Virus record (IMG/VR): IMGVR_UViG_2737471848_000023
Coordinates: 1 to 6,407 of that record
Origin: a virus
Lineage: Duplodnaviria > Heunggongvirae > Uroviricota > Caudoviricetes
Strand: one strand, 5' to 3'
Length of the DNA stretch: 6,407 nucleotides
The translations under genes and the position numbers were made by a program. The notes under the pieces were generated by a model, which had not been told where the DNA came from, did not search any database, and saw only the letters and a program-made list of their open reading frames with translations. Of this stretch, positions 1-6,407 are shown piece after piece. Numbering within the stretch: the first letter of the stretch is position 1; the number at the start of each line of letters is the position of its first letter.

Positions 1-153
1 GACGGATAACCACATCGTCGCCGTTCCGTCATCGGCCTGGCTGCACGGCAGGGGGATAGCCATACCCGCCATCGCCATTTGTGTACCCTTGCTGGTGGTC
101 TTTAACTGTGGGTCAGCCACCAGCCGCCCGTAAGCGGCTATCTGTGCTGTCAT
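1..153 (-). CDS. SSB-like OB-fold protein, N-terminal 51 codons only (gene continues beyond window start)
   Basis: ATG at 153..151 preceded by GGAGAGGTG; open to position 1 with no stop. Hand translation MTAQIAAYGRLVADPQLKTTSKGTQMAMAGMAI...TATMWLSV fits the N-terminal pattern of SSB-type OB folds (hydrophobic-G-R/N-L-x-x-D-P-x-L-R/K...T..G). Start overlaps the upstream stop as ATGA. Not in the ORF track because it is truncated. Confidence 0.5.
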   Translation of the reverse strand, partial: MTAQIAAYGRLVADPQLKTTSKGTQMAMAGMAIPLPCSQADDGTATMWLSV

Positions 154-464
154 GATTTCACCTCTCCGGTTTTAACGTTGATGGTTGTTACCTGTTCCGC
201 TTCGGCAATCTCCCGTTCTGTCAGCGTGGCAAAGTTTGCAGCTGCCGTTGTCATGAATGCGCTTATCAGGTCGGGATGTGCTTTCGCGTATCCTTCCCCC
301 GCATGGCGGTCTATCGTTCTGATTGCCACCTTTAAGGTATGCTCAGTCATGTCTAACGCTTTATATTTTGGCTCTGTTCTGTCTCTGCGAATTTTGGTCA
401 TTTGTCGCCCCTGATTCATGTTTTCGGCTGGCATGTTTGTTAAGTGATTTTGATGTATGCGCAT
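150..464 (-). CDS. hypothetical protein (104 aa)
   Basis: ORF from track; ATG at 464 preceded by GAGGGGGTG about 8 nt upstream; stop TGA at 152..150 overlaps next start (ATGA). No motif I recognise. Internal ATGs at 434, 419 and 401 are alternative starts. Confidence 0.55.
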   Translation of the reverse strand: MRIHQNHLTNMPAENMNQGRQMTKIRRDRTEPKYKALDMTEHTLKVAIRTIDRHAGEGYAKAHPDLISAFMTTAAANFATLTEREIAEAEQVTTINVKTGEVKS

Positions 465-510
465 TTATTTTCACCCCCTCGTTTAAAAAGTTTTTAGTTG
501 TGCCTCCCCC

Positions 511-736
511 CCCTCTACCCATCTACCCGAATGCTCATCATGTCAGTAATGGCGAGGCTTTCAGCGGGTAGATAGCTTTTGGGGCTCCTCTACCTGCCGT
601 CTACCCTGCTACCTGAAACTGATAAAATCAGGTAGAAGAGGTAGAGAGCTTTTATTAGCCTTCTACCTGGCCCTCTACCCACTTATCATGTTGAATAATA
701 TGTATTTATTTCATTCGGGTAGATGGGGTAGAGGGC
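511..736. repeat. iteron array, candidate replication origin
   Basis: At least 11 copies of the 6-bp core TCTACC / GGTAGA in both orientations: forward at 514, 522, 589, 600, 662, 674 (plus GCTACC at 608), reverse at 567, 631, 640, 718, 727. Adjacent same-orientation copies are 8-12 bp apart. An AT-rich segment (681..716) lies inside the array. Sits immediately 3' of the primase/helicase gene. Confidence 0.6.
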
Positions 737-748
737 TTTTACAAAAAA

Positions 749-2503
749 TTATAAAAACGCGTCGCAATCGTCTGTTGTAATTGCGTTGGTCTGCGTTACT
801 CCCTTAACTTTTCGCGTAATATATTCATGCCCGTAAACTTTCGCCGCTGGCTTCATGGCCTTGCTGAACTCAGCCACGTTTAGCGGTTTGCTCCTGCCTG
901 CGTATGCCATAAACGCCAGATAGACGCGGTAAAGGCTGTTCCTGGTCGTGTACTTCACTGAATCACCACCGCCACCCATCATCAGGCCGCGCGCTTCCTC
1001 CAGAAAATTCAGGAACTGGCAAAACTCAATAACCGGATCCGTCTGTTGCTTTATTGCCAGTGCTTCATCACCGTCACGCTGTTCCAGTAGTAAAGCCCTC
1101 GCCTTTTCAGGGTCGGTAAAGTTCGCCAGCAAGCGGCGGATAATCACAGGGATTTCAGCCGCGACCTTCTCCGGCAAATCCTTGTCCTTTTCTGCCTCGC
1201 TAACGATATTGTCAAAGCGAAAAATAACCCGACGACGTGCCACGCCTCCGGCCCGTTCGGTGAATATCATCGGGTTGTTGTTGGTCGCCAGCACCACCGC
1301 CCTGATTACCGCCGTGAAACGCTTTTCATATTTCGGGTTAATTTCCACGGGGTCGCCGCCCGTGATTTTCTTGATGCCCGTTCCTTCGCCTGTATATTTC
1401 GGCTGGTCAGCCAGGACGATAAGACGACTCCCGACAACCTGCGCGCGCCCTCCTGCATCATCGAGTGATGTCATCTCCGCGCTTACGGTGTTCTGTTTCC
1501 CTGCCAGAAGGCTGGCTATGTGTGTGAATGTACTTTTACCGCTCCCGCCGTCTCCGGTGGCCTCAATAAACATCTGCCAGTCGTACCGGTTCGCCATAAT
1601 CATGTACAGCGCGGCACATATACGCATCATCTTGCGCGGGTCTTTTCCGGCTGCGTGCTCAAGCCATTTATGAAAGTTTGGCGCGTTGTCGCGAATGTTC
1701 TCCCCTGGTGCTGGTGGCGTGTACTCAATGCCGTTGTGCGTGGTGATCCAGTTCTCCGGCGTGTGCGGGGAAAATTCCCCCGTTTTCAGGTCAAGCGCAC
1801 CATTGGCGAACGGCAGCAAATCGCCGGACGGCTCCCCCATTGGTTCGGCAATAACTTTTAACGCTTCAACGGCGTTATTGATCACGCGTTTGCTGAAAGT
1901 GGCCCTGTGCTCTGAATAGATCGCCACCATTTCGCGGCTAAGTTCCATTGTGCTGACCGGACACCATACCCCGCCGCGCCATACGTGAACGATTTCACTT
2001 TCCGGATGCACACAAACGCCATCAAATCGACCAGCAAGCATCTGTGCGCGTTCACTGTCCGCCATCTGCGAAAGTTGCGCCTTTTGCTTTACCGGAAGCT
2101 CAACGACCAGACCTTCAGAAAGATTCTGGCGCTCACGGGCCAGATATTCGCGCCAGTTCTCCACCTTCTGACCGTGCATTCCTTCGGGGTAAAATTTTGC
2201 ATCCTGTACGCCTGCCGCCGCCAGCTTCTGACCAATCTTTTTGGTCTCCACCAAGTCCAGTTCTCCTGCCTGGTACAGCCTTACGCGTTTTTTTCCATCA
2301 GGAACAATTTGCAGTGCATAAAGTTCGGCAAGCTGATTTGGCCCAAGCCACACAGGAGGCACATTATCGCCGGATGCGGGGCCGTCCTGCTCCTGCCACT
2401 GTTTTGCATGTGCCCACGCATCACTACCCGCGAAAATAATCACCTCTGTGTCTTTGTGTTTTATTCCGCGTGGCTGTTTTTTTACGTTCGGTGCCAGTTT
2501 CAT
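749..2503 (-). CDS. replication protein: primase/helicase with P-loop NTPase domain (584 aa)
   Basis: Long ORF with AGGGG 7 nt before the ATG at 2503. Walker A GDGGSGKST at about aa 317-325 (nt about 1529..1555) and Walker B-like LIVLAD at about aa 361-366, consistent with the SF3/P4-alpha/D5 family of phage-plasmid primase-helicases. N-terminal roughly 300 aa is a separate domain. Start overlaps the upstream stop (ATGA at 2503..2500). Confidence 0.9.
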   Translation of the reverse strand: MKLAPNVKKQPRGIKHKDTEVIIFAGSDAWAHAKQWQEQDGPASGDNVPPVWLGPNQLAELYALQIVPDGKKRVRLYQAGELDLVETKKIGQKLAAAGVQDAKFYPEGMHGQKVENWREYLARERQNLSEGLVVELPVKQKAQLSQMADSERAQMLAGRFDGVCVHPESEIVHVWRGGVWCPVSTMELSREMVAIYSEHRATFSKRVINNAVEALKVIAEPMGEPSGDLLPFANGALDLKTGEFSPHTPENWITTHNGIEYTPPAPGENIRDNAPNFHKWLEHAAGKDPRKMMRICAALYMIMANRYDWQMFIEATGDGGSGKSTFTHIASLLAGKQNTVSAEMTSLDDAGGRAQVVGSRLIVLADQPKYTGEGTGIKKITGGDPVEINPKYEKRFTAVIRAVVLATNNNPMIFTERAGGVARRRVIFRFDNIVSEAEKDKDLPEKVAAEIPVIIRRLLANFTDPEKARALLLEQRDGDEALAIKQQTDPVIEFCQFLNFLEEARGLMMGGGGDSVKYTTRNSLYRVYLAFMAYAGRSKPLNVAEFSKAMKPAAKVYGHEYITRKVKGVTQTNAITTDDCDAFL

Positions 2504-2799
2504 TTTTTACCCCTGAATACGTTAAGCATCTTTTTTATTTCCTGAATATTGGCGCGTGCTTTCTCCCTGCTGGTTGGCTTACTGCGGGGCGCTGCCTGTA
2601 CCAGAGAAAAATCACGCCGGAACTGATAAACAGGCATCACGCAATCATATTCGTAACCTTCACGGCGGTAGGTTACGCGCCGTTCTTCCACGCCCTTAAT
2701 CATTACCGTGCCGCCGTACTGGTCGCGGTAAATATCACCGCGCGTAAATTTAGGGTGAGTGTTGCCACTGGCAGTTAAGCCAGAATATTTAAGTTTCAT
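2500..2799 (-). CDS. hypothetical small protein (99 aa)
   Basis: ORF from track; GGAG about 10 nt upstream of ATG at 2799; stop overlaps primase start. Protein is basic and protein-like in composition. No family assigned. Confidence 0.7.
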   Translation of the reverse strand: MKLKYSGLTASGNTHPKFTRGDIYRDQYGGTVMIKGVEERRVTYRREGYEYDCVMPVYQFRRDFSLVQAAPRSKPTSREKARANIQEIKKMLNVFRGKK

Positions 2800-2804
2800 T
2801 ATTT

Positions 2805-3038
2805 TTATTCTCCGGTGTGCTGTTCTTTATATCTGTCGTGCAATAGATCTATTTCTTGCAGTTCCATTATTACAGGCTCAAGAAGCGTTATTAATGCCGT
2901 GGCAATTCTTGATTTTTGTTTGTCGCGTTCATTGTCGCCAAGTGTTTCAAGCCATATGCGAAATATTTCCATCATGTTTTCACTGTGAGAAAGTGCAAGA
3001 AATGCGCGGTCTATTGTTTGGTGGTAAATATCACGCAT
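2805..3038 (-). CDS. hypothetical small protein (77 aa)
   Basis: ORF from track; GAGGA 9 nt upstream of ATG at 3038; 8-nt overlap (ATGCGTGA) with the upstream gene stop. Acidic, predicted helical. Confidence 0.65.
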   Translation of the reverse strand: MRDIYHQTIDRAFLALSHSENMMEIFRIWLETLGDNERDKQKSRIATALITLLEPVIMELQEIDLLHDRYKEQHTGE

Positions 3039-3264
3039 GGCTTACATCCTCAGGAAATTTTCTTCTATAACGCGCCTCTGCCACATATTCCGCATAATCG
3101 GCGGCGATATTCAGTACATCAAGCCCCGTTGATTTATATTCTCTCGTGGAAAGTAAGAAAAAAGCCGCTCTAATAAGCTCTGGCATTGACGAAAGCGCAT
3201 CAGCCGCATCATCAGGAACGCCGGAAAATTCCTGTTTCAGGGAATTAAAACGATCATCACGCAT
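3031..3264 (-). CDS. hypothetical small protein (77 aa; start trimmed from track ORF 3031..3285)
   Basis: Internal ATG at 3264 is preceded by AGGGGGG about 6 nt upstream and lies 4 nt after the upstream gene stop (3257..3259). The track start at 3285 has no RBS and would overlap the upstream gene by 29 nt. Confidence 0.6.
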   Translation of the reverse strand: MRDDRFNSLKQEFSGVPDDAADALSSMPELIRAAFFLLSTREYKSTGLDVLNIAADYAEYVAEARYRRKFPEDVSHA

Positions 3265-3622
3265 GTTTACCCCCCTGAATGACATGATAACCGCAACTGG
3301 TCAGCAACTCGATAAATTCCGGCAGTGTGCCGAAACAGCAATCATCACGCAGCCGTTCGCAGGATACCTCGACGCCGTTTTCGTAGTGACTCACCATACA
3401 TCCGGTAAAATGCAGATCATCATCGTGATGGCTCGTTGACGGCTTAATCAGTCGCGCACGTTCCGCCAGTTCCAGCAATGCTTCAACGCTTCCGGCAATT
3501 GCACCATCCGGCAGGTGATAATTACGCACTATGCGCCCGTTCTCCACATTGACCAGCAACTGCCCGGTAAATTTCTCGTCAAACTGAATGCTGTTAAGGT
3601 CAGAAATTGACAGGTTATGCAT
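3257..3622 (-). CDS. hypothetical Cys/His-rich protein (121 aa; start trimmed from track ORF 3257..3640)
   Basis: ATG at 3622 is preceded by AGGAGG (minus strand reads ATGTGCAGGAGGTGCACC ATG). Begins MHNLSISDL. Five Cys (positions 75, 88, 95, 96, 110) and several His in the C-terminal half suggest possible metal binding. 8-nt overlap (ATGCATAA) with the upstream gene. Confidence 0.65.
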   Translation of the reverse strand: MHNLSISDLNSIQFDEKFTGQLLVNVENGRIVRNYHLPDGAIAGSVEALLELAERARLIKPSTSHHDDDLHFTGCMVSHYENGVEVSCERLRDDCCFGTLPEFIELLTSCGYHVIQGGKHA

Positions 3623-3839
3623 GGTGCACCTCCTGCACATCAGCCATGATAATTTTTCCGGCCTTATCCAGTGCCTGATCGGCTTTTAGCTGCACAAATG
3701 CTAAATAATGGAAGATGCATTCTGATTCTCTGGCTGCGTGTTTATGCGCCCTGTCAGCAATAACAGAAATATCAATCAGCGCGTGCATCAGTGTAGTGAG
3801 TGCGGCGGCGGTTGCGTCCGGTGTGGTTTTATTGTGCAT
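3615..3839 (-). CDS. hypothetical small protein (74 aa)
   Basis: ORF from track; AGGGGGAA 5 nt upstream of ATG at 3839; 11-nt overlap with the upstream gene; stop overlaps next start. Confidence 0.6.
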   Translation of the reverse strand: MHNKTTPDATAAALTTLMHALIDISVIADRAHKHAARESECIFHYLAFVQLKADQALDKAGKIIMADVQEVHHA

Positions 3840-4035
3840 AGGTTTCCCCCTGACGAATACGGGCAGCGAATACCATCACGCAGCCAGCCGGAGATTGCTG
3901 GCGTGCTTCCTGTTCGCTGGTGGCCTCAATGGTAATCACGCGCGGTTGTGCCGTGCTCAGGGCGATAAAACGCCAGATGTATTTATTCAGGTTGTGCGAG
4001 TCCCGCCCTTGCGGGTGTGTGGTATGATTTCTCAT
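3829..4035 (-). CDS. hypothetical small protein (68 aa), first gene of the leftward operon; tentatively Icd-like
   Basis: C-terminal part of track ORF 3829..4623. ATG at 4035 with GAGG about 7 nt upstream (GATTATCGAGGCAGCT ATG). Sequence MRNHTTHPQGRDSHNLNKYIWRFIALSTAQPRVITIEATSEQEARQQ... The Icd-like resemblance is from memory only and unverified. Confidence 0.5.
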   Translation of the reverse strand: MRNHTTHPQGRDSHNLNKYIWRFIALSTAQPRVITIEATSEQEARQQSPAGCVMVFAARIRQGETYAQ

Positions 4036-4132
4036 AGCTGCCTCGATAATCTTGCTATCGTTGGTGGTTAGAAGCCCTGCGAGTGGTAACGACACTTGCG
4101 GGGCTTTGCATTTATGCACCTTGATAACCTCA

Positions 4133-4168
4133 AGGTGTGGCCCACTATATTCTTTAGGTGTGGCCCAC
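4133..4168. promoter_or_regulatory. two perfect 13-bp direct repeats AGGTGTGGCCCAC, each containing the palindrome GTGGnCCAC; candidate operator
   Basis: Exact copies at 4133..4145 and 4156..4168, 23 bp start to start (about two helical turns). They lie between the divergent RHH gene and the leftward operon and overlap the predicted -10 and spacer/-35 of the leftward promoter. Confidence 0.55.
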
Positions 4169-4173
4169 GTCAA
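4144..4173 (-). promoter_or_regulatory. candidate sigma70 promoter for the leftward small-ORF/primase operon
   Basis: On the minus strand: -35 TTGACG (4173..4168), 18-bp spacer, -10 TATAGT (4149..4144). Predicted start near 4137 gives an about 100-nt leader before the ATG at 4035. Prediction by eye only. Confidence 0.4.
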
Positions 4174-4175
4174 GA

Positions 4176-4204
4176 GTTTTATTTGTGCTTTTTCTGTGTA
4201 TACT
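4176..4204 (+). promoter_or_regulatory. candidate promoter for the RHH gene
   Basis: -10 TATACT at 4199..4204 immediately preceded by TG; the -35 region (about 4176..4181) is a poor match, so this may depend on an activator or be mis-assigned. Back to back with the leftward promoter. Confidence 0.3.
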
Positions 4205-4234
4205 GTCCCCCACCAATCCAACAGAGGAATAGAA

Positions 4235-4414
4235 ATGGCAACGGGTACAACAAACGCAAAATCACAAGCTCTAAAGGCTCGTGTACCACACGAAATAGTA
4301 AACGAGATGGAATTAGTGAAAGAATCAGGCGAAAGCACATCACAATTCATCATTGCGTCAATGCAAGGCGAGATCAAACGCCGCCAGCGCCGCAAGGCCA
4401 AAGAGCAGGAATAG
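4235..4414 (+). CDS. small ribbon-helix-helix (CopG/Arc-like) DNA-binding protein (59 aa)
   Basis: ATG at 4235 with GAGGA 6 nt upstream; stop TAG at 4412..4414. Sequence MATGTTNAKSQALKARVPHEIVNEMELVKESGESTSQFIIASMQGEIKRRQRRKAKEQE has the RHH pattern: a short beta strand (KARVP), helix, G-x-S/T turn (SGESTSQ), second helix, basic tail. The only plus-strand gene in the window. Confidence 0.6.
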   Translation: MATGTTNAKSQALKARVPHEIVNEMELVKESGESTSQFIIASMQGEIKRRQRRKAKEQE

Positions 4415-4502
4415 CCCACCAGCAAGCCAGCACACTGAGCACATTGCCCACCAGACAGCAAATCGCTATGATGTTCGGGCTTATGTTTAGTGTTTTCCCA
4501 TT

Positions 4503-4530
4503 GGCGACCGCCACAGGTCGCCTTTGTTTT
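4503..4530 (+). terminator. intrinsic terminator (plus-strand orientation)
   Basis: Perfect 7-bp GC-rich stem GGCGACC (4503..4509) / GGTCGCC (4516..4522) with 6-nt loop, followed by TTTGTTTT (4523..4530). On the minus strand the hairpin is followed by AATGGGAAAACA, so it is not obviously a terminator for alpA. Confidence 0.6.
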
Positions 4531-4549
4531 ATGTGTCATATGCTCCCCT

Positions 4550-4759
4550 TTACGCTGCCTTACCTGCATTAATACGATCCCTGCTTTTAACCCATTCCAT
4601 AACCTCAGACTTAACCCAGCCAACAGAACGACCGCCGAGACTGATACGTGAGGGGAAGCGGCCCTGCTTTTCCATCTCGTAACGAGTTGTGCGGCAAACG
4701 CCTGTTAGCTCTCTGCATTCTTTTTCGCGGATTACACGATCTTCATTTATTTCGCGCAT
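4550..4759 (-). CDS. alpA: AlpA-family transcriptional regulator (69 aa)
   Basis: ORF from track; AGGA 6 nt upstream of ATG at 4759. Sequence VIREKECRELTGVCRTTRYEMEKQGRFPSRISLGGRSVGWVKSEVMEWVKSR matches the AlpA pattern (..TG.sr.T.Y......FP....LG.RsVGW...Ev.eWv..R). Lies directly downstream of int on the same strand. Confidence 0.9.
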   Translation of the reverse strand: MREINEDRVIREKECRELTGVCRTTRYEMEKQGRFPSRISLGGRSVGWVKSEVMEWVKSRDRINAGKAA

Positions 4760-5088
4760 AAAAAGTCCTACATAAAATTACGTATAGAAATTTTTGTTTC
4801 GCTGTGGATATACGGAAAGATATTACTTCTTAGCTTTTCTTACCTCTTAAATTGAATACGTAACCTTTCTGAACTTTATGTTCGTCAAAGTTCGCTAGAG
4901 TTTGCTGCTGTTCATAAAATCGTGTCACGAGTTTTTAAGCGACGCAACAAAAAATGTCGTCATTTGGTATTACACTTAAATTATCTCATTAAAAACAAAT
5001 AGATAAACCATCAGGTGTTGGAACAATCAAGAAACAGAGAATAAGGATTCAGGAGAGTGAATTTCAATTTTTTCGATGATTGACAAAT

Positions 5089-5162
5089 AAAAAAACGACG
5101 AACTTTGGTCGAACTTCGACGATTTTTTTAAGACGGCTATTTTCCCGAAGAAAAACAGCCGT
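5089..5162. terminator. hairpins downstream of int stop; candidate int terminator
   Basis: Hairpin 5133..5162 (stem ACGGCT/AGCCGT plus inner TTTTC/GAAAA). Second imperfect hairpin 5096..5121 is flanked by A7 (5089..5095) and T7 (5123..5129), so on the minus strand it is followed by a U7 run. The stem has one mismatch, so the call is tentative. Confidence 0.35.
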
Positions 5163-5168
5163 AATTTG

Positions 5169-6407
5169 TCAAGAATTTTGGGAGTAAATTCGCGGGGTCA
5201 TAACAACGATTTTTTCATCATTGTTCTGGAGAAGCTCGAGACGCTCACCCCATAGATTAAGAGCGTCACGTTTTGCATCAAGATAACGGGAGTGATTATA
5301 GACTCGTTGCATTCCTGGCAACTGGTGCGCGGTTAGCTGCTCCACTACATGAGGATCAACGCCTAAATCGTTCAGCATCGTTGTAAACGTGTGCCGGATG
5401 TCGTGCAACGTCCATGGGGCTTGATTAATGCGTCTGTGTGCCGTTCTTCCGTACTCTGATACGGATGATTGCCCTTTCAGTTCTCCGAGCAATAATCCCG
5501 TGTGCCTGTTCTGCTCCACCAGCTTCATGACAAACGGCAAGATCGCTTCCGGTATTGGCCTGAATATTGCTACCTTCGTTTTGCTGTGTTCTTTCGGCAC
5601 GGTCCAGAGCATTTCTTTAAAATCCCATTCCTGGACCTCAGAGCGTCTTAGCTCAGTGGTACGACATCCGAAGACAATCAGGAGGCGAATCAGGGCGCTG
5701 TAGTACGGTGGGTAAATTTTTTCATCAAGGGCGCGTAGTAATTCCCCAAGCTCCTTGTTTGTTAGTACGCGCTCGCTTATTTCTGCTTTTTTCCCAACAT
5801 CACCGACAACCATATCATCGAGAACGTTGGTAATTGCGTAGCGTCGTTTTCGGCAGTACTTAAGCGCCTGTTTGCACACCTGTAGCAAAAATCCGGCTGA
5901 TACCGGATTACGCTTAGCAAGCTGGTCAAAACAGGCCAGCCAGTGGCGTAGCTCGCATTTTTCCAGTGGCATAGCGCCAATCTGGCTAATTATGTGTTTA
6001 TTGATCCGGCTTTTCAGTGATTCGTAGTCAGTGCGCTTTTCCTTTGCGTACGATTCAAGCCAGTAAGTGAGAGCTTCCTTAACCGTCACGGGGGCTAAAG
6101 CGTCCTGTACAGCATGATTAAGTTCATAGCGCGGATTTTTCCCCTCAGCCAGCCAGGCGCGACACTGTGCCGCTTTTTCCCTGGCAGCTTTCAGGCTCAG
6201 ATCGGGATAATTGCCCAGCCTCAGACGTTCCGGTGATATCTGCCTACCAGTTCCGGCCCTGTAAGTGAAATACCAGGTTAACAGGCCATTGGTTGAATGC
6301 CTTACGCTAAGGTTGCCACCATCATTAAAAAAGGTGCTTTTTGTGGTTGGTGATCCGCTTAATTTTCGTAAAAGAGTGTCGCTAAGTCTATGAATTGCCC
6401 TGCTCAT
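5169..6407 (-). CDS. int: tyrosine site-specific integrase (412 aa)
   Basis: Full ORF with ATG at the last 3 nt of the window. N-terminal arm-type domain (NDGGNLSVRHSTNGLLTWYFTYR...RLRLGNYPDLSLKAARE). C-terminal catalytic region with HDIRHTFTTML (H-x-x-R) and the tyrosine region YNHSRY. Overall layout matches P4/CP4-type integrases. Confidence 0.95.
   Translation of the reverse strand: MSRAIHRLSDTLLRKLSGSPTTKSTFFNDGGNLSVRHSTNGLLTWYFTYRAGTGRQISPERLRLGNYPDLSLKAAREKAAQCRAWLAEGKNPRYELNHAVQDALAPVTVKEALTYWLESYAKEKRTDYESLKSRINKHIISQIGAMPLEKCELRHWLACFDQLAKRNPVSAGFLLQVCKQALKYCRKRRYAITNVLDDMVVGDVGKKAEISERVLTNKELGELLRALDEKIYPPYYSALIRLLIVFGCRTTELRRSEVQEWDFKEMLWTVPKEHSKTKVAIFRPIPEAILPFVMKLVEQNRHTGLLLGELKGQSSVSEYGRTAHRRINQAPWTLHDIRHTFTTMLNDLGVDPHVVEQLTAHQLPGMQRVYNHSRYLDAKRDALNLWGERLELLQNNDEKIVVMTPRIYSQNS

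What the first reader, a model, noticed from the sequence alone, without database searches (positions are those of the whole stretch)
2500..4035. Operon of six small overlapping ORFs of unknown function upstream of the primase
Six ORFs (68, 74, 121, 77, 77 and 99 aa) are packed with overlapping or near-abutting junctions (ATGA at 2503..2500; 8-nt ATGCGTGA and ATGCATAA overlaps; 11-nt overlap at 3829..3839), each with its own Shine-Dalgarno sequence. This implies coupled translation from one transcript. None carries a motif I can assign. In satellites this position typically holds helper-exploitation or host-takeover functions, so these are the best candidates for undescribed activities.
Basis: partly seen in the sequence, partly recalled or inferred. 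Interest (0 to 1): 0.6.

Follow-up and report, generated by a model that had tools for sequence, protein, structure and literature searches.

The report
Early operon of a phage satellite
The six small overlapping genes are real and form the early operon of a known kind of E. coli phage satellite (a PICI): the first and last genes belong to families with a characterised member (a cell-division inhibitor and the regulator RgdR), and the four in between are shuffled cargo of unknown function.

Summary
Six minus-strand ORFs (68, 74, 121, 77, 77 and 99 aa) tile 2500-4035 with overlaps of 11, 8, 8 and 8 nt, a 5-nt gap, and a 4-nt overlap into the primase gene. Each has a Shine-Dalgarno sequence.

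The window is the int-alpA-...-primase-ori-ssb part of an Escherichia-type phage-inducible chromosomal island (PICI or cf-PICI). Part of this module occurs in 1835 of 5426 complete E. coli genomes.

- ORF1 is an Icd-like protein, in the same family as P1 Icd (an FtsZ inhibitor) and P4 Kil.
- ORF6 is 93% identical to RgdR (ECs1581), a characterised regulator already reported in all E. coli PICIs analysed.
- ORFs 2-5 remain unassigned. They are narrow enterobacterial families, mostly acidic, and highly mosaic.

The layout parallels the P4 left operon, but the cargo is not homologous: ORF2 is not related to P4 epsilon.

New observations made here:
- The C4/isrK immunity RNAs of P4 are absent. A divergent ylcI gene takes their place, and its sequence type tracks island-specific operator repeats at the operon promoter.
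- The RgdR stop overlaps the replicase start in 77 of 77 islands.
- A variable poly-G tract fuses or separates ORF4 and the ORF before it.

Verdict: a new member of a known kind, of moderate to low interest.

The parts
4144..4173 (-). Sigma-70-like promoter of the operon (-35 TTGACG at 4173..4168, 18-nt spacer, -10 TATAGT at 4149..4144)
   Evidence: Best promoter-like site in the window, 10 of 12 matches. The -35 is conserved in 8 aligned islands. The transcription start has not been mapped.
4135..4168 (.). Two candidate operator sites of the form GTG-N5-CAC (4135-4145 and 4158-4168), 23 bp apart. One lies in the promoter spacer and the other just after the -10.
   Evidence: 22-nt direct repeat. 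The N5 core co-varies between the two copies within each island and maps one-to-one onto the YlcI sequence type but not the AlpA type. Binding has not been tested.
4036..4140 (-). Structured 5' leader. It holds a GC-rich hairpin with compensatory changes and a hairpin that pairs the ORF1 Shine-Dalgarno with the invariant stretch CTTCTAACCACCAACGATAG (4055-4074).
   Evidence: MFE -36 kcal/mol, z -3.66, 0 of 200 shuffles fold as well. RNAalifold finds 5 pairs with changes on both sides. The hairpin is retained with a different stem in Serratia. No complementary partner was found in the window.
3829..4035 (-). ORF1, 68 aa, an Icd-like protein (predicted FtsZ-directed cell-division inhibitor)
   Evidence: NF033153 at 69.8 bits against a cut-off of 25. 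38% identity to P1 Icd residues 11-49. P1 Icd and the P4 Kil region hit the same model. 50% identity to Sakai ECs1577.
3615..3839 (-). ORF2, 74 aa, unknown function (phrog_5146). It occupies the position of P4 epsilon but is not homologous to it.
   Evidence: Homologues at 46-55% identity occur in other islands. Natural ORF2-ORF4 fusions exist.
3257..3622 (-). ORF3, 121 aa, acidic, an internal tandem duplication of a beta-hairpin-beta-alpha unit. Function unknown (phrog_340).
3270..3275 (-). Poly-G tract (G6 here) just upstream of the ORF4 start. Its length decides whether ORF3 and ORF4 are fused or separate.
   Evidence: Across 62 islands the tract is G6 to G10. 7 islands have a fused ORF and 55 have separate ORFs. 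196-aa ORF3-ORF4 and 154/155-aa ORF2-ORF4 fusion proteins are in the databases.
3031..3264 (-). ORF4, 77 aa, acidic, unknown function (phrog_24341 and the C-terminal half of phrog_2512)
   Evidence: PGAP labels the homologue a frameshifted pseudogene in L001 and L002. It is intact in L013 and L009.
2805..3038 (-). ORF5, 77 aa, acidic, unknown function (phrog_2196). A distant positional homologue of Sakai ECs1580 and of Ant_12 in phage record vB_KppS-Ant.
   Evidence: 525 protein clusters, and those listed that carry a name are called hypothetical or prophage protein. 31% identity to ECs1580. 30% identity to Ant_12. No match in the phage collection.
2500..2799 (-). ORF6, 99 aa, basic (pI 10.1): an RgdR orthologue (DUF4222) with RGD at residues 20-22 and K35
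   Evidence: PF13973, E 1.5e-24. 92.9% identity to ECs1581. AF2 core pLDDT about 89, a Tudor/KOW-like barrel plus a basic helix. A 4-nt overlap with the replicase start in 77 of 77 loci.
749..2503 (-). Primase/helicase (pri-rep), 584 aa, the last gene of the coupled block
   Evidence: D5_N, DUF5906, Pox_D5 and TIGR01613 matches. 40% identity to P4 alpha over 434 aa.
4235..4414 (+). Divergent ylcI/ynfO-family gene, 59 aa: candidate repressor of the operon promoter
   Evidence: NF041551, E 3e-18. A terminator-like hairpin lies at 4503-4522. Its type tracks the operator type. Residues 12-14 are hypervariable. The ribbon-helix-helix fold was not confirmed.
4550..4759 (-). alpA, the activator of the PICI cycle
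   Evidence: PF05930, E 8e-18. 41% identity to P4 Vis. Its role is taken from PMC6092414.

Best explanation
The six ORFs are the variable early operon of an Escherichia-type phage-inducible chromosomal island (PICI or cf-PICI). It lies between the integration module (int, alpA) and the replication module (pri-rep, ori, ssb).

Shown: the genes are real, co-oriented and joined by start/stop overlaps that run into the primase gene. ORF1 is a member of the Icd-like family, which includes P1 Icd (an FtsZ-binding division inhibitor) and P4 Kil. ORF6 is an orthologue of RgdR. ORFs 2-5 belong to narrow families without assignment and are exchanged between islands as cassettes at stereotyped junctions.

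Inferred mechanism: the helper phage raises alpA expression. The operon is then transcribed from the promoter at 4173..4144, which in the quiescent state is probably closed by the divergently encoded YlcI protein bound at the two GTG-N5-CAC sites. One mRNA with a structured leader is translated by coupling, so that all products appear together with the replicase. ORF1 arrests host division. The small acidic proteins from ORFs 3-5, and the near-neutral ORF2 product, most likely act by binding host or helper proteins. RgdR, a Tudor-like barrel with a basic helix, is made alongside the replicase and acts on DNA or RNA polymerase. Its effect on LEE and motility would be a side effect of that activity.
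For: - Context: int, alpA, D5/P4-type primase, iteron ori and ssb are in the window. The same order continues into perC and capsid/portal/terminase genes in E. coli relatives. The module is present in 1835 of 5426 E. coli genomes.
- Coupling: overlaps and Shine-Dalgarno sites are conserved in 8 other islands. There is no minus-strand terminator-like site inside the block.
- ORF1: and the Icd-FtsZ paper PMC11897509.
- ORF6. RgdR function comes from PMC3378721, and its presence in all E. coli PICIs analysed from PMC6092414.
- AlpA as activator of PICI genes and unidirectional transcription: PMC6092414.
- P4 parallel: vis, kil (Icd-like), epsilon, orf151, orf106 and alpha, with 8-nt overlaps.
- Cassette mosaicism.
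- YlcI and operators.
- RgdR-replicase overlap in 77 of 77 loci.
- RgdR fold.
Against: - No transcript data: the promoter, the single mRNA and the coupling are all inferred from sequence.
- ORFs 2-5 have no Pfam, NCBIfam, PADLOC or PDB assignment. Their protein-binding role is a guess from size, charge and position.
- ORF4 is frameshifted in some close relatives, and many truncated chimeras exist, so part of the cargo may be dispensable.
- ORF5 shows mostly non-synonymous differences in the few comparisons available.
- The ribbon-helix-helix fold of YlcI got no sequence-level support, and its linkage to the operators could reflect adjacency alone.
Confidence: 0.75

Rival explanations
1. ORFs 2-5 are dedicated helper-exploitation factors, such as anti-repressors that derepress a helper prophage as P4 epsilon does, or inhibitors of helper reproduction.
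For: ORF2 follows the Icd-like gene across the same type of overlap as epsilon follows kil in P4: ATGCACAATAA in the window against GTGCGTAATAA in P4. The proteins are small and mostly acidic. Cassette turnover fits an arms race with diverse helpers.
Against: ORF2 has no detectable similarity to epsilon (z about 0) and no hit to the epsilon family PF25738, which P4 epsilon itself hits at E 9e-51. No PADLOC hit. The published cf-PICI work read here places the characterised packaging functions downstream of the primase and says nothing about these ORFs. No phenotype is known.
Confidence: 0.25
2. ORFs 2-5 and RgdR are accessory replication proteins, such as an ori-binding factor, a loader or a primase partner, that serve the downstream replicase.
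For: They are co-translated with the replicase. The RgdR stop overlaps the replicase start in 77 of 77 loci whatever the replicase type. All the replicase types share the N-terminal MK(L/S)APN domain. RgdR binds DNA non-specifically (PMC3378721).
Against: For EcCICFT073, the cloned rep gene plus ori was reported to suffice for autonomous plasmid replication (PMC6092414). ORFs 2-5 are present or absent in different islands that carry the same replicase. The Serratia, Morganella and vB_KppS-Ant islands lack DUF4222.
Confidence: 0.15
3. The middle ORFs are largely neutral, decaying cargo. They would be remnants of recombination that stay open only because they lie inside a coupled operon.
For: ORF4 is frameshifted in L001 and L002. 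There are many deletion variants and chimeras. Only 133 of 1835 E. coli genomes with a match keep at least 80% of the block. ORF5 differences are mostly non-synonymous in a small sample.
Against: dN/dS is 0.07-0.1 for ORF2 and ORF3. ORF3, ORF4 and ORF5 have full-length homologues at 25-42% identity. Shine-Dalgarno sites and overlaps are conserved at every junction. ORF5 is found in 525 clusters at a constant 77 aa.
Confidence: 0.15

Closest known systems
Gram-negative PICIs and capsid-forming PICIs (EcCICFT073, EcCIEDL933 / CP-933C / Sakai Sp7)
   Same: The gene order int, alpA, small ORFs, rgdR, pri-rep, iteron ori, ssb, perC and then (in relatives) capsid, portal and terminase genes. ORF6 is 93% identical to Sp7 RgdR. 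ORF1 is 50% identical to ECs1577 and ORF5 31% to ECs1580. The insertion site of the closest relatives is between cspD and clpS.
   Different: The middle cargo differs: Sp7 has ECs1578 and ECs1579, while the window has ORFs 2-4. The C-terminal part of the replicase is unrelated, with only the first 227 aa alike at 60% identity. The window ends at ssb, so whether this copy has a capsid module is unknown.
Satellite P4 left operon (vis, eta/kil, epsilon, orf151, orf106, alpha)
   Same: An AlpA/Vis-type regulator comes first, then an Icd-like gene opens a block of small overlapping genes that runs into a P4-family primase. The 8-nt and 11-nt junction style is the same. alpA is 41% identical to vis, and the primase 40% identical to alpha.
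   Different: P4 controls the block with the isrK/seqA and C4/CI RNAs, which are detected in P4 and in a Morganella element but not in the window. The window has a divergent ylcI gene and protein-type operator repeats instead. Epsilon, orf151 and orf106 have no homologues among ORFs 2-6.
Phage P1 immI operon (c4, icd, ant1/ant2)
   Same: A small Icd-family gene is the first, translationally coupled gene of an operon whose downstream genes change the state of the element. P1 Icd residues 12-51, the region reported to be sufficient for FtsZ inhibition, are the part that matches the family model and ORF1.
   Different: There is no C4 RNA and no ant homologue. ORF1 is only 38% identical to P1 Icd over 42 aa.
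RgdR (ECs1581) of EHEC O157:H7
   Same: 99 aa, DUF4222, RGD at residues 20-22, Q27, K35 and R61 all conserved. 92.9% identity. The same position directly upstream of the island replicase.
   Different: ORF6 has A10 and R45, as in the CFT073 and ED1a variants. Its regulatory activity is untested. The host of the window may lack LEE.

Membership tests
Gram-negative PICI / cf-PICI | Tyrosine integrase at one end, followed by an AlpA-family regulator in the same orientation | tested here: met
   int at 6407..5169 and alpA at 4759..4550, PF05930 E 8e-18.
Gram-negative PICI / cf-PICI | A pri-rep gene followed immediately by an iteron-rich origin | tested here: met
   D5_N, DUF5906 and TIGR01613 matches. 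Repeated TCTACC-type motifs in both orientations over 503-744, around an AT-rich centre.
Gram-negative PICI / cf-PICI | Size of about 10-20 kb with a packaging or capsid module downstream of the replication genes | not testable with these tools
   The window ends at the start of ssb. Relatives L002, L003 and L015 carry capsid, portal and terminase genes. IMG/VR relatives are mostly on 8-20 kb contigs.
Gram-negative PICI / cf-PICI | Induction and transfer depend on a helper phage | not testable with these tools
   Needs an experiment. Published for EcCICFT073 and EcCIEDL933.
Icd-like cell-division inhibitor (NCBIfam NF033153) | Score above the curated cut-off on the family model | tested here: met
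   ORF1 scores 69.8 bits against a cut-off of 25, over residues 19-62. P1 Icd scores 52.6 bits over residues 12-51, and the P4 Kil region 73.9 bits.
Icd-like cell-division inhibitor (NCBIfam NF033153) | Binds FtsZ and blocks Z-ring formation | not testable with these tools
   Shown only for P1 Icd (PMC11897509).
RgdR / DUF4222 | PF13973 domain, about 99 aa, RGD tripeptide at residues 20-22 | tested here: met
   PF13973 at 85.7 bits against a cut-off of 27. 92.9% identity to ECs1581. R20-G21-D22 and K35 are present.
RgdR / DUF4222 | Activates LEE1 and represses motility | not testable with these tools
   Published for ECs1581 and C1493. The ED1a variant with C20 is inactive.
P4 epsilon helper-derepression protein (PF25738) | Sequence membership of the Derepression family | tested here: not met
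   ORF2 has no PF25738 hit at E <= 0.1, while P4 epsilon hits at E 9e-51. The pairwise alignment z-score is about 0.
C4/CI antisense-RNA immunity (Rfam RF01695 with isrK RF01394) | C4- and isrK-type RNA genes upstream of the Icd-like gene | tested here: not met
   No hit in the window at the gathering threshold or at E <= 1. Positive controls: P4 scores 74.9 and 60.8 bits, and Morganella L007 84 and 72.9 bits.
Ribbon-helix-helix repressor (for YlcI) | Ribbon-helix-helix fold, with a base-reading N-terminal strand | tested here: inconclusive
   The sequence pattern and hypervariable residues 12-14 fit. The PDB profile search and the Pfam scans give nothing significant.
AbrB/MraZ swapped-hairpin fold (for ORF3) | Structural match to AbrB-type domains | tested here: not met

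The most novel reading that the evidence does not exclude
The operon may be governed by a protein-based immunity module that has not been described for Gram-negative PICIs. The 59-aa YlcI-family protein encoded divergently at 4235-4414 would bind the two island-specific GTG-N5-CAC sites over the operon promoter. It would then be the missing master repressor, a functional analogue of SaPI Stl and of the P4 CI RNA, with different islands carrying different immunity types. Within the operon, RgdR would be a Tudor-fold factor obligatorily co-translated with the replicase, possibly contacting RNA polymerase as the UvrD, PcrA and CarD Tudor domains do. ORFs 2-5 would be swappable host- or helper-binding cassettes whose fusion state is toggled by a hypermutable poly-G tract.
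Probability: 0.35. Interest if true: 0.6.

Novelty: new member of a known kind. Interest (0 to 1): 0.36.

Why it matters
PICIs are abundant in E. coli: part of this module is in about a third of complete genomes. They move virulence regulators such as RgdR and PerC between strains.

The early operon is the least studied part of these elements. The PICI and cf-PICI papers read here do not discuss the small ORFs. One notes only a variable gene of unknown function downstream of alpA.

Showing that two of the six genes belong to families with a characterised member narrows the true unknowns to four narrow families. This removes most of the apparent novelty.

The comparative results give testable leads on two open points:
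- What keeps Gram-negative PICIs silent. [quoted passage not shown]
- What RgdR does for the island itself, as opposed to its effect on LEE.

Tried and rejected
- ORF2 as a homologue of P4 epsilon. Rejected: alignment z about 0 and no PF25738 hit. Only the junction DNA is alike.
- ORF3 as a zinc-binding protein (5 Cys, 8 His). Rejected: the cysteines are not conserved in homologues at 25-41% identity.
- P4 orf151 as a cryptic DUF4222 protein. No Pfam support.
- A C4/CI-type antisense RNA or an internal pairing partner for the invariant leader. None found.
- Defence-system membership. No PADLOC hit for any small ORF.
- Sequence search of ORFs 2-5 against solved structures. Nothing significant.
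- Pfam scans of distant homologues of ORFs 3-5. Nothing.
- A combined structure prediction of the natural ORF3-ORF4 fusion. Abandoned because MAFFT misaligned the short ORF4 homologues.
- A Foldseek search against afdb50. The library was not available.
- The genome-contig scan with the primase. It returned only 3 loci.
- The 264-aa ORF at 4623..3829, in frame with ORF1. Judged spurious, because it is the antisense of ylcI and has a Cys-rich, nonsense-like sequence.
- The weak Plasmid_RAQPRD hit of ORF2. Below the curated cut-off and ignored.

Full report
**1. The observation**

The window carries, on the minus strand, the following genes:
- int (6407..5169) and alpA (4759..4550)
- six small ORFs: ORF1 4035..3829 (68 aa), ORF2 3839..3615 (74 aa), ORF3 3622..3257 (121 aa), ORF4 3264..3031 (77 aa), ORF5 3038..2805 (77 aa), ORF6 2799..2500 (99 aa)
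- a primase/helicase gene (2503..749), a 104-aa ORF (464..150) and the start of an ssb gene

Every start has a G-rich Shine-Dalgarno sequence.

ORFs of at least 60 aa cover 99.3% of the region on one strand. The maximum in 500 shuffles is 63%. No terminator-like site lies on that strand inside the block.

dN/dS against orthologues is 0.07-0.4 for ORFs 1, 2, 3 and 6, although the counts are small. ORF5 has too few substitutions in my sample to judge. Its coding status rests on homologues at about 30% identity and on 525 protein clusters of a constant 77 aa.

**2. What the element is**

The family scans give these assignments:
- alpA: PF05930
- the replicase: a P4/D5-type primase-helicase
- ORF1: NCBIfam NF033153, "host cell division inhibitor Icd-like" (69.8 bits, cut-off 25)
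- ORF6: DUF4222 (PF13973, E 1.5e-24)
- a 59-aa gene on the opposite strand (4235-4414): YlcI/YnfO family

The DNA matches 1891 of 5426 complete E. coli genomes. The best match is 93.8% identical, in O145:H28 RM12581.

In annotated relatives the same gene order continues into ssb, perC and a complete capsid, protease, portal, connector, HNH and terminase module, inserted between cspD and clpS. This is the architecture of the capsid-forming PICIs described for EcCIEDL933 and of Gram-negative PICIs in general.

Downstream of the primase gene, 503-744 holds many TCTACC-type motifs in both orientations around an AT-rich centre. This is the expected origin position.

**3. ORF6 is RgdR**

Sakai prophage-like element Sp7 is the Sakai counterpart of CP-933C/OI-51 and has a cf-PICI gene order. 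It has the layout: small ORFs, ECs1581, primase.

ORF6 is 92.9% identical to ECs1581 over all 99 residues. ECs1581 is RgdR. It activates LEE1 and type III secretion, represses motility and binds DNA without specificity. Residue 20 of its RGD motif and K35 matter for activity (PMC3378721). ORF6 keeps R20-G21-D22, Q27, K35 and R61.

[quoted passage not shown] This ORF is therefore not unknown.

An AlphaFold model has a core pLDDT of about 89. It shows a five-stranded small barrel followed by a basic helix.

Such scores are common for small barrels, so this is a lead and not an assignment.

In all 77 loci I hold that contain DUF4222, its stop codon overlaps the replicase start by 4 nt (ATGA in 39, GTGA in 38). 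The replicases range from 452 to 710 aa and are variously annotated as primase, RepA helicase or DUF927 protein.

**4. ORF1 is Icd-like**

P1 Icd hits the same model over residues 12-51. That is the segment reported to suffice for FtsZ-directed division arrest (PMC11897509). ORF1 aligns to P1 Icd residues 11-49 at 38% identity.

The last 65 codons of the ORF annotated "cI" in P4 also hit the model (E 8e-21). The literature describes P4 Kil as a truncated form of Eta that kills cells (PMC10111431). That Kil is 65 codons long is my recollection, not something I checked.

An Icd-like gene also opens the pre-primase block in a Serratia island, a Morganella P4-like element and the 16.5-kb record vB_KppS-Ant.

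**5. ORFs 2-5**

None has a Pfam, NCBIfam or PADLOC assignment or a solved relative by sequence. The same holds for their distant homologues. Each falls in a PHROG of unknown function.

ORF3 has 70 homologue clusters, with source names in E. coli, Salmonella and E. albertii. An exhaustive search with a natural ORF3-ORF4 fusion found only 42 hits in 1.84 billion representatives.

ORFs 3-5 are acidic (pI 4.8-5.2), while ORF1 and ORF6 are basic.

The cargo is mosaic. Only 133 of 1835 E. coli genomes with a match keep at least 80% of the block. Sampled islands have between one and six ORFs between the Icd-like gene and rgdR.

Chimeric proteins are common. They include ORF1 joined to the ORF3 N-terminal part, the ORF3 N-terminal part joined to an ORF2-like sequence, AntA joined to the ORF3 C-terminal part, DUF4222 joined to ORF3, and ORF4 joined to ORF5.

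The junctions are stereotyped. The last codons of each gene (...RQGG or ...QEV...) contain the Shine-Dalgarno sequence of the next, followed by ATG and a stop 1-8 nt later. Different cassettes follow the same end of the Icd-like gene, "cgtattcgtcagggg".

**6. The P4 parallel**

The P4 left operon reads vis, eta/kil, epsilon, orf151, orf106, alpha, with 8-nt overlaps. alpA is 41% identical to vis, and the primase is 40% identical to alpha.

ORF2 sits where epsilon sits, across a similar overlap. It is not related to epsilon, however (z about 0; no PF25738 hit). The resemblance is therefore architectural only.

**7. Control region (outside the given coordinates, but it bears on how the operon works)**

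The best promoter-like site in the window lies between ylcI and ORF1: TTGACG, 18 nt, TATAGT, at 4173..4144. Two copies of a 22-nt repeat overlap it.

Aligned over eight islands, the -35 is conserved. The repeats resolve into two GTG-N5-CAC sites whose N5 core differs between islands but agrees between the two copies within an island, in direct or inverted orientation.

In the sample there are nine operator types with a detectable ylcI, and each pairs with one YlcI sequence type. AlpA types are shuffled against them. For example, twelve islands of one operator/YlcI type carry four unrelated AlpA variants.

YlcI variants differ most at residues 12-14, between the invariant K9-S10 and R16. This stretch is followed by P18, a helix, a G-E-S-T turn and a second helix. 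That is the pattern of a ribbon-helix-helix protein. Neither a PDB profile search nor Pfam confirms the fold, and ylcI lies next to the sites, so linkage alone could produce the association.

Rfam finds the C4/CI and isrK RNAs upstream of the Icd-like gene in P4 and in the Morganella element. It finds none in the window or in the Serratia island, which have ylcI instead.

The leader from about 4140 to 4036 folds strongly (z -3.66). It has a GC hairpin with compensatory changes and a hairpin that pairs the ORF1 Shine-Dalgarno with an invariant stretch.

The literature I could search names no repressor for Gram-negative PICIs and has nothing functional on YlcI/YnfO.

**8. Poly-G tract**

A G run precedes the ORF4 start. 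It is G6 in the window (3270-3275). Across 62 islands it is G6, G7, G8 or G10. Depending on its length, ORF4 is fused in frame to the preceding ORF (ORF3 or ORF2; 7 loci) or separate from it (55 loci), with the upstream stop 5 nt either side of the ATG.

Fusion proteins of 196 and 154/155 aa are well represented in protein databases. Homopolymer sequencing errors cannot be excluded for some records.

**9. Mechanism and verdict**

The best-supported reading is a helper-triggered, AlpA-dependent early operon that is translated by coupling. Its predicted parts are:
- a division inhibitor first
- exchangeable small proteins of unknown targets in the middle
- RgdR tied to the replicase at the end
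- a probable YlcI repressor at the promoter

What is shown: gene reality, family membership of ORF1 and ORF6, synteny, junction conservation, mosaicism, and the association between operator type and YlcI type.

What is inferred: the promoter, the single transcript, the YlcI repression, the targets of ORFs 2-5, and any contact between RgdR and RNA polymerase.

The finding is a new mosaic member of a known kind of element. Its first and last genes belong to families with a characterised member, so the interest is moderate to low. The control module and the RgdR coupling are the parts most worth an experiment.

Noticed in passing
window 4124-4173 and 4235-4414: Two GTG-N5-CAC repeats overlap the operon promoter. 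Their cores co-vary within each island and map one-to-one onto the sequence type of the divergent YlcI-family protein, but not onto AlpA types. This makes YlcI a candidate protein repressor for Gram-negative PICIs, for which none is described in the papers I could search.
   Followed up: yes
window 3270-3275 (minus-strand G6): The length-variable poly-G tract (G6 to G10 across 62 islands) before the ORF4 start fuses ORF4 to the preceding ORF or separates it, and every tract length seen leaves ORF4 expressible as a fusion or as a separate ORF. A +1 slip on the G6 allele would recreate the 196-aa fusion protein, but this is speculative.
   Followed up: yes
window 4036-4140 (minus strand): The 5' leader of the operon is strongly structured (z -3.66). 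It has a covarying GC hairpin and a hairpin that sequesters the ORF1 Shine-Dalgarno against the invariant stretch CTTCTAACCACCAACGATAG. No antisense partner was found in the window.
   Followed up: partly
window 503-744: The probable replication origin: many TCTACC-type motifs in both orientations, a perfect 16-nt inverted repeat (518-533 and 712-727) and an AT-rich centre. Rfam gives only sub-threshold 'miRNA precursor' hits there, which reflect the long hairpin.
   Followed up: partly
window 749-2503, compared with L003, L008, L009 and L011: Replicases of different types (D5/P4 primase, RepA helicase, DUF927; 452-710 aa) all begin with the same N-terminal domain (MK[LS]APN...; 60% identity over the first 227 aa to Sakai ECs1582), and RgdR always precedes them. 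The domain has no Pfam match in residues 1-150.
   Followed up: partly
window 3829-4623 (minus strand): A 264-aa ORF in frame with ORF1 runs antisense through ylcI. PGAP annotates similar stretches in relatives as partial 'Icd-like' pseudogenes. It looks like an artefact of the ylcI antisense frame, or possibly a remnant of a P4 eta-like gene.
   Followed up: partly
window 4503-4522 and 4550: The hairpin after ylcI has a T-run only on the plus strand. alpA transcripts may therefore read through, antisense to ylcI, into the operon. That would be a possible switch, but it is untested.
   Followed up: no
window 150-464 and 1-152: A conserved 104-aa ORF of unknown function (phrog_1231; 90% identity to Sakai ECs1586) overlaps the start of an ssb gene that is cut off by the window end.
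   Followed up: no
window 4760-5168: A 409-nt AT-rich non-coding gap lies between int and alpA. It is presumably the alpA promoter region. The Rfam int-alpA RNA found in the Morganella locus L007 is not detected here.
   Followed up: no
L015 (LR881103.1, vB_KppS-Ant): This 16.5-kb record, deposited as an induced prophage, has the gene order int, regulator, Icd-like, small ORFs, primase, capsid, portal. It therefore looks like a packaged cf-PICI rather than a phage.
   Followed up: partly
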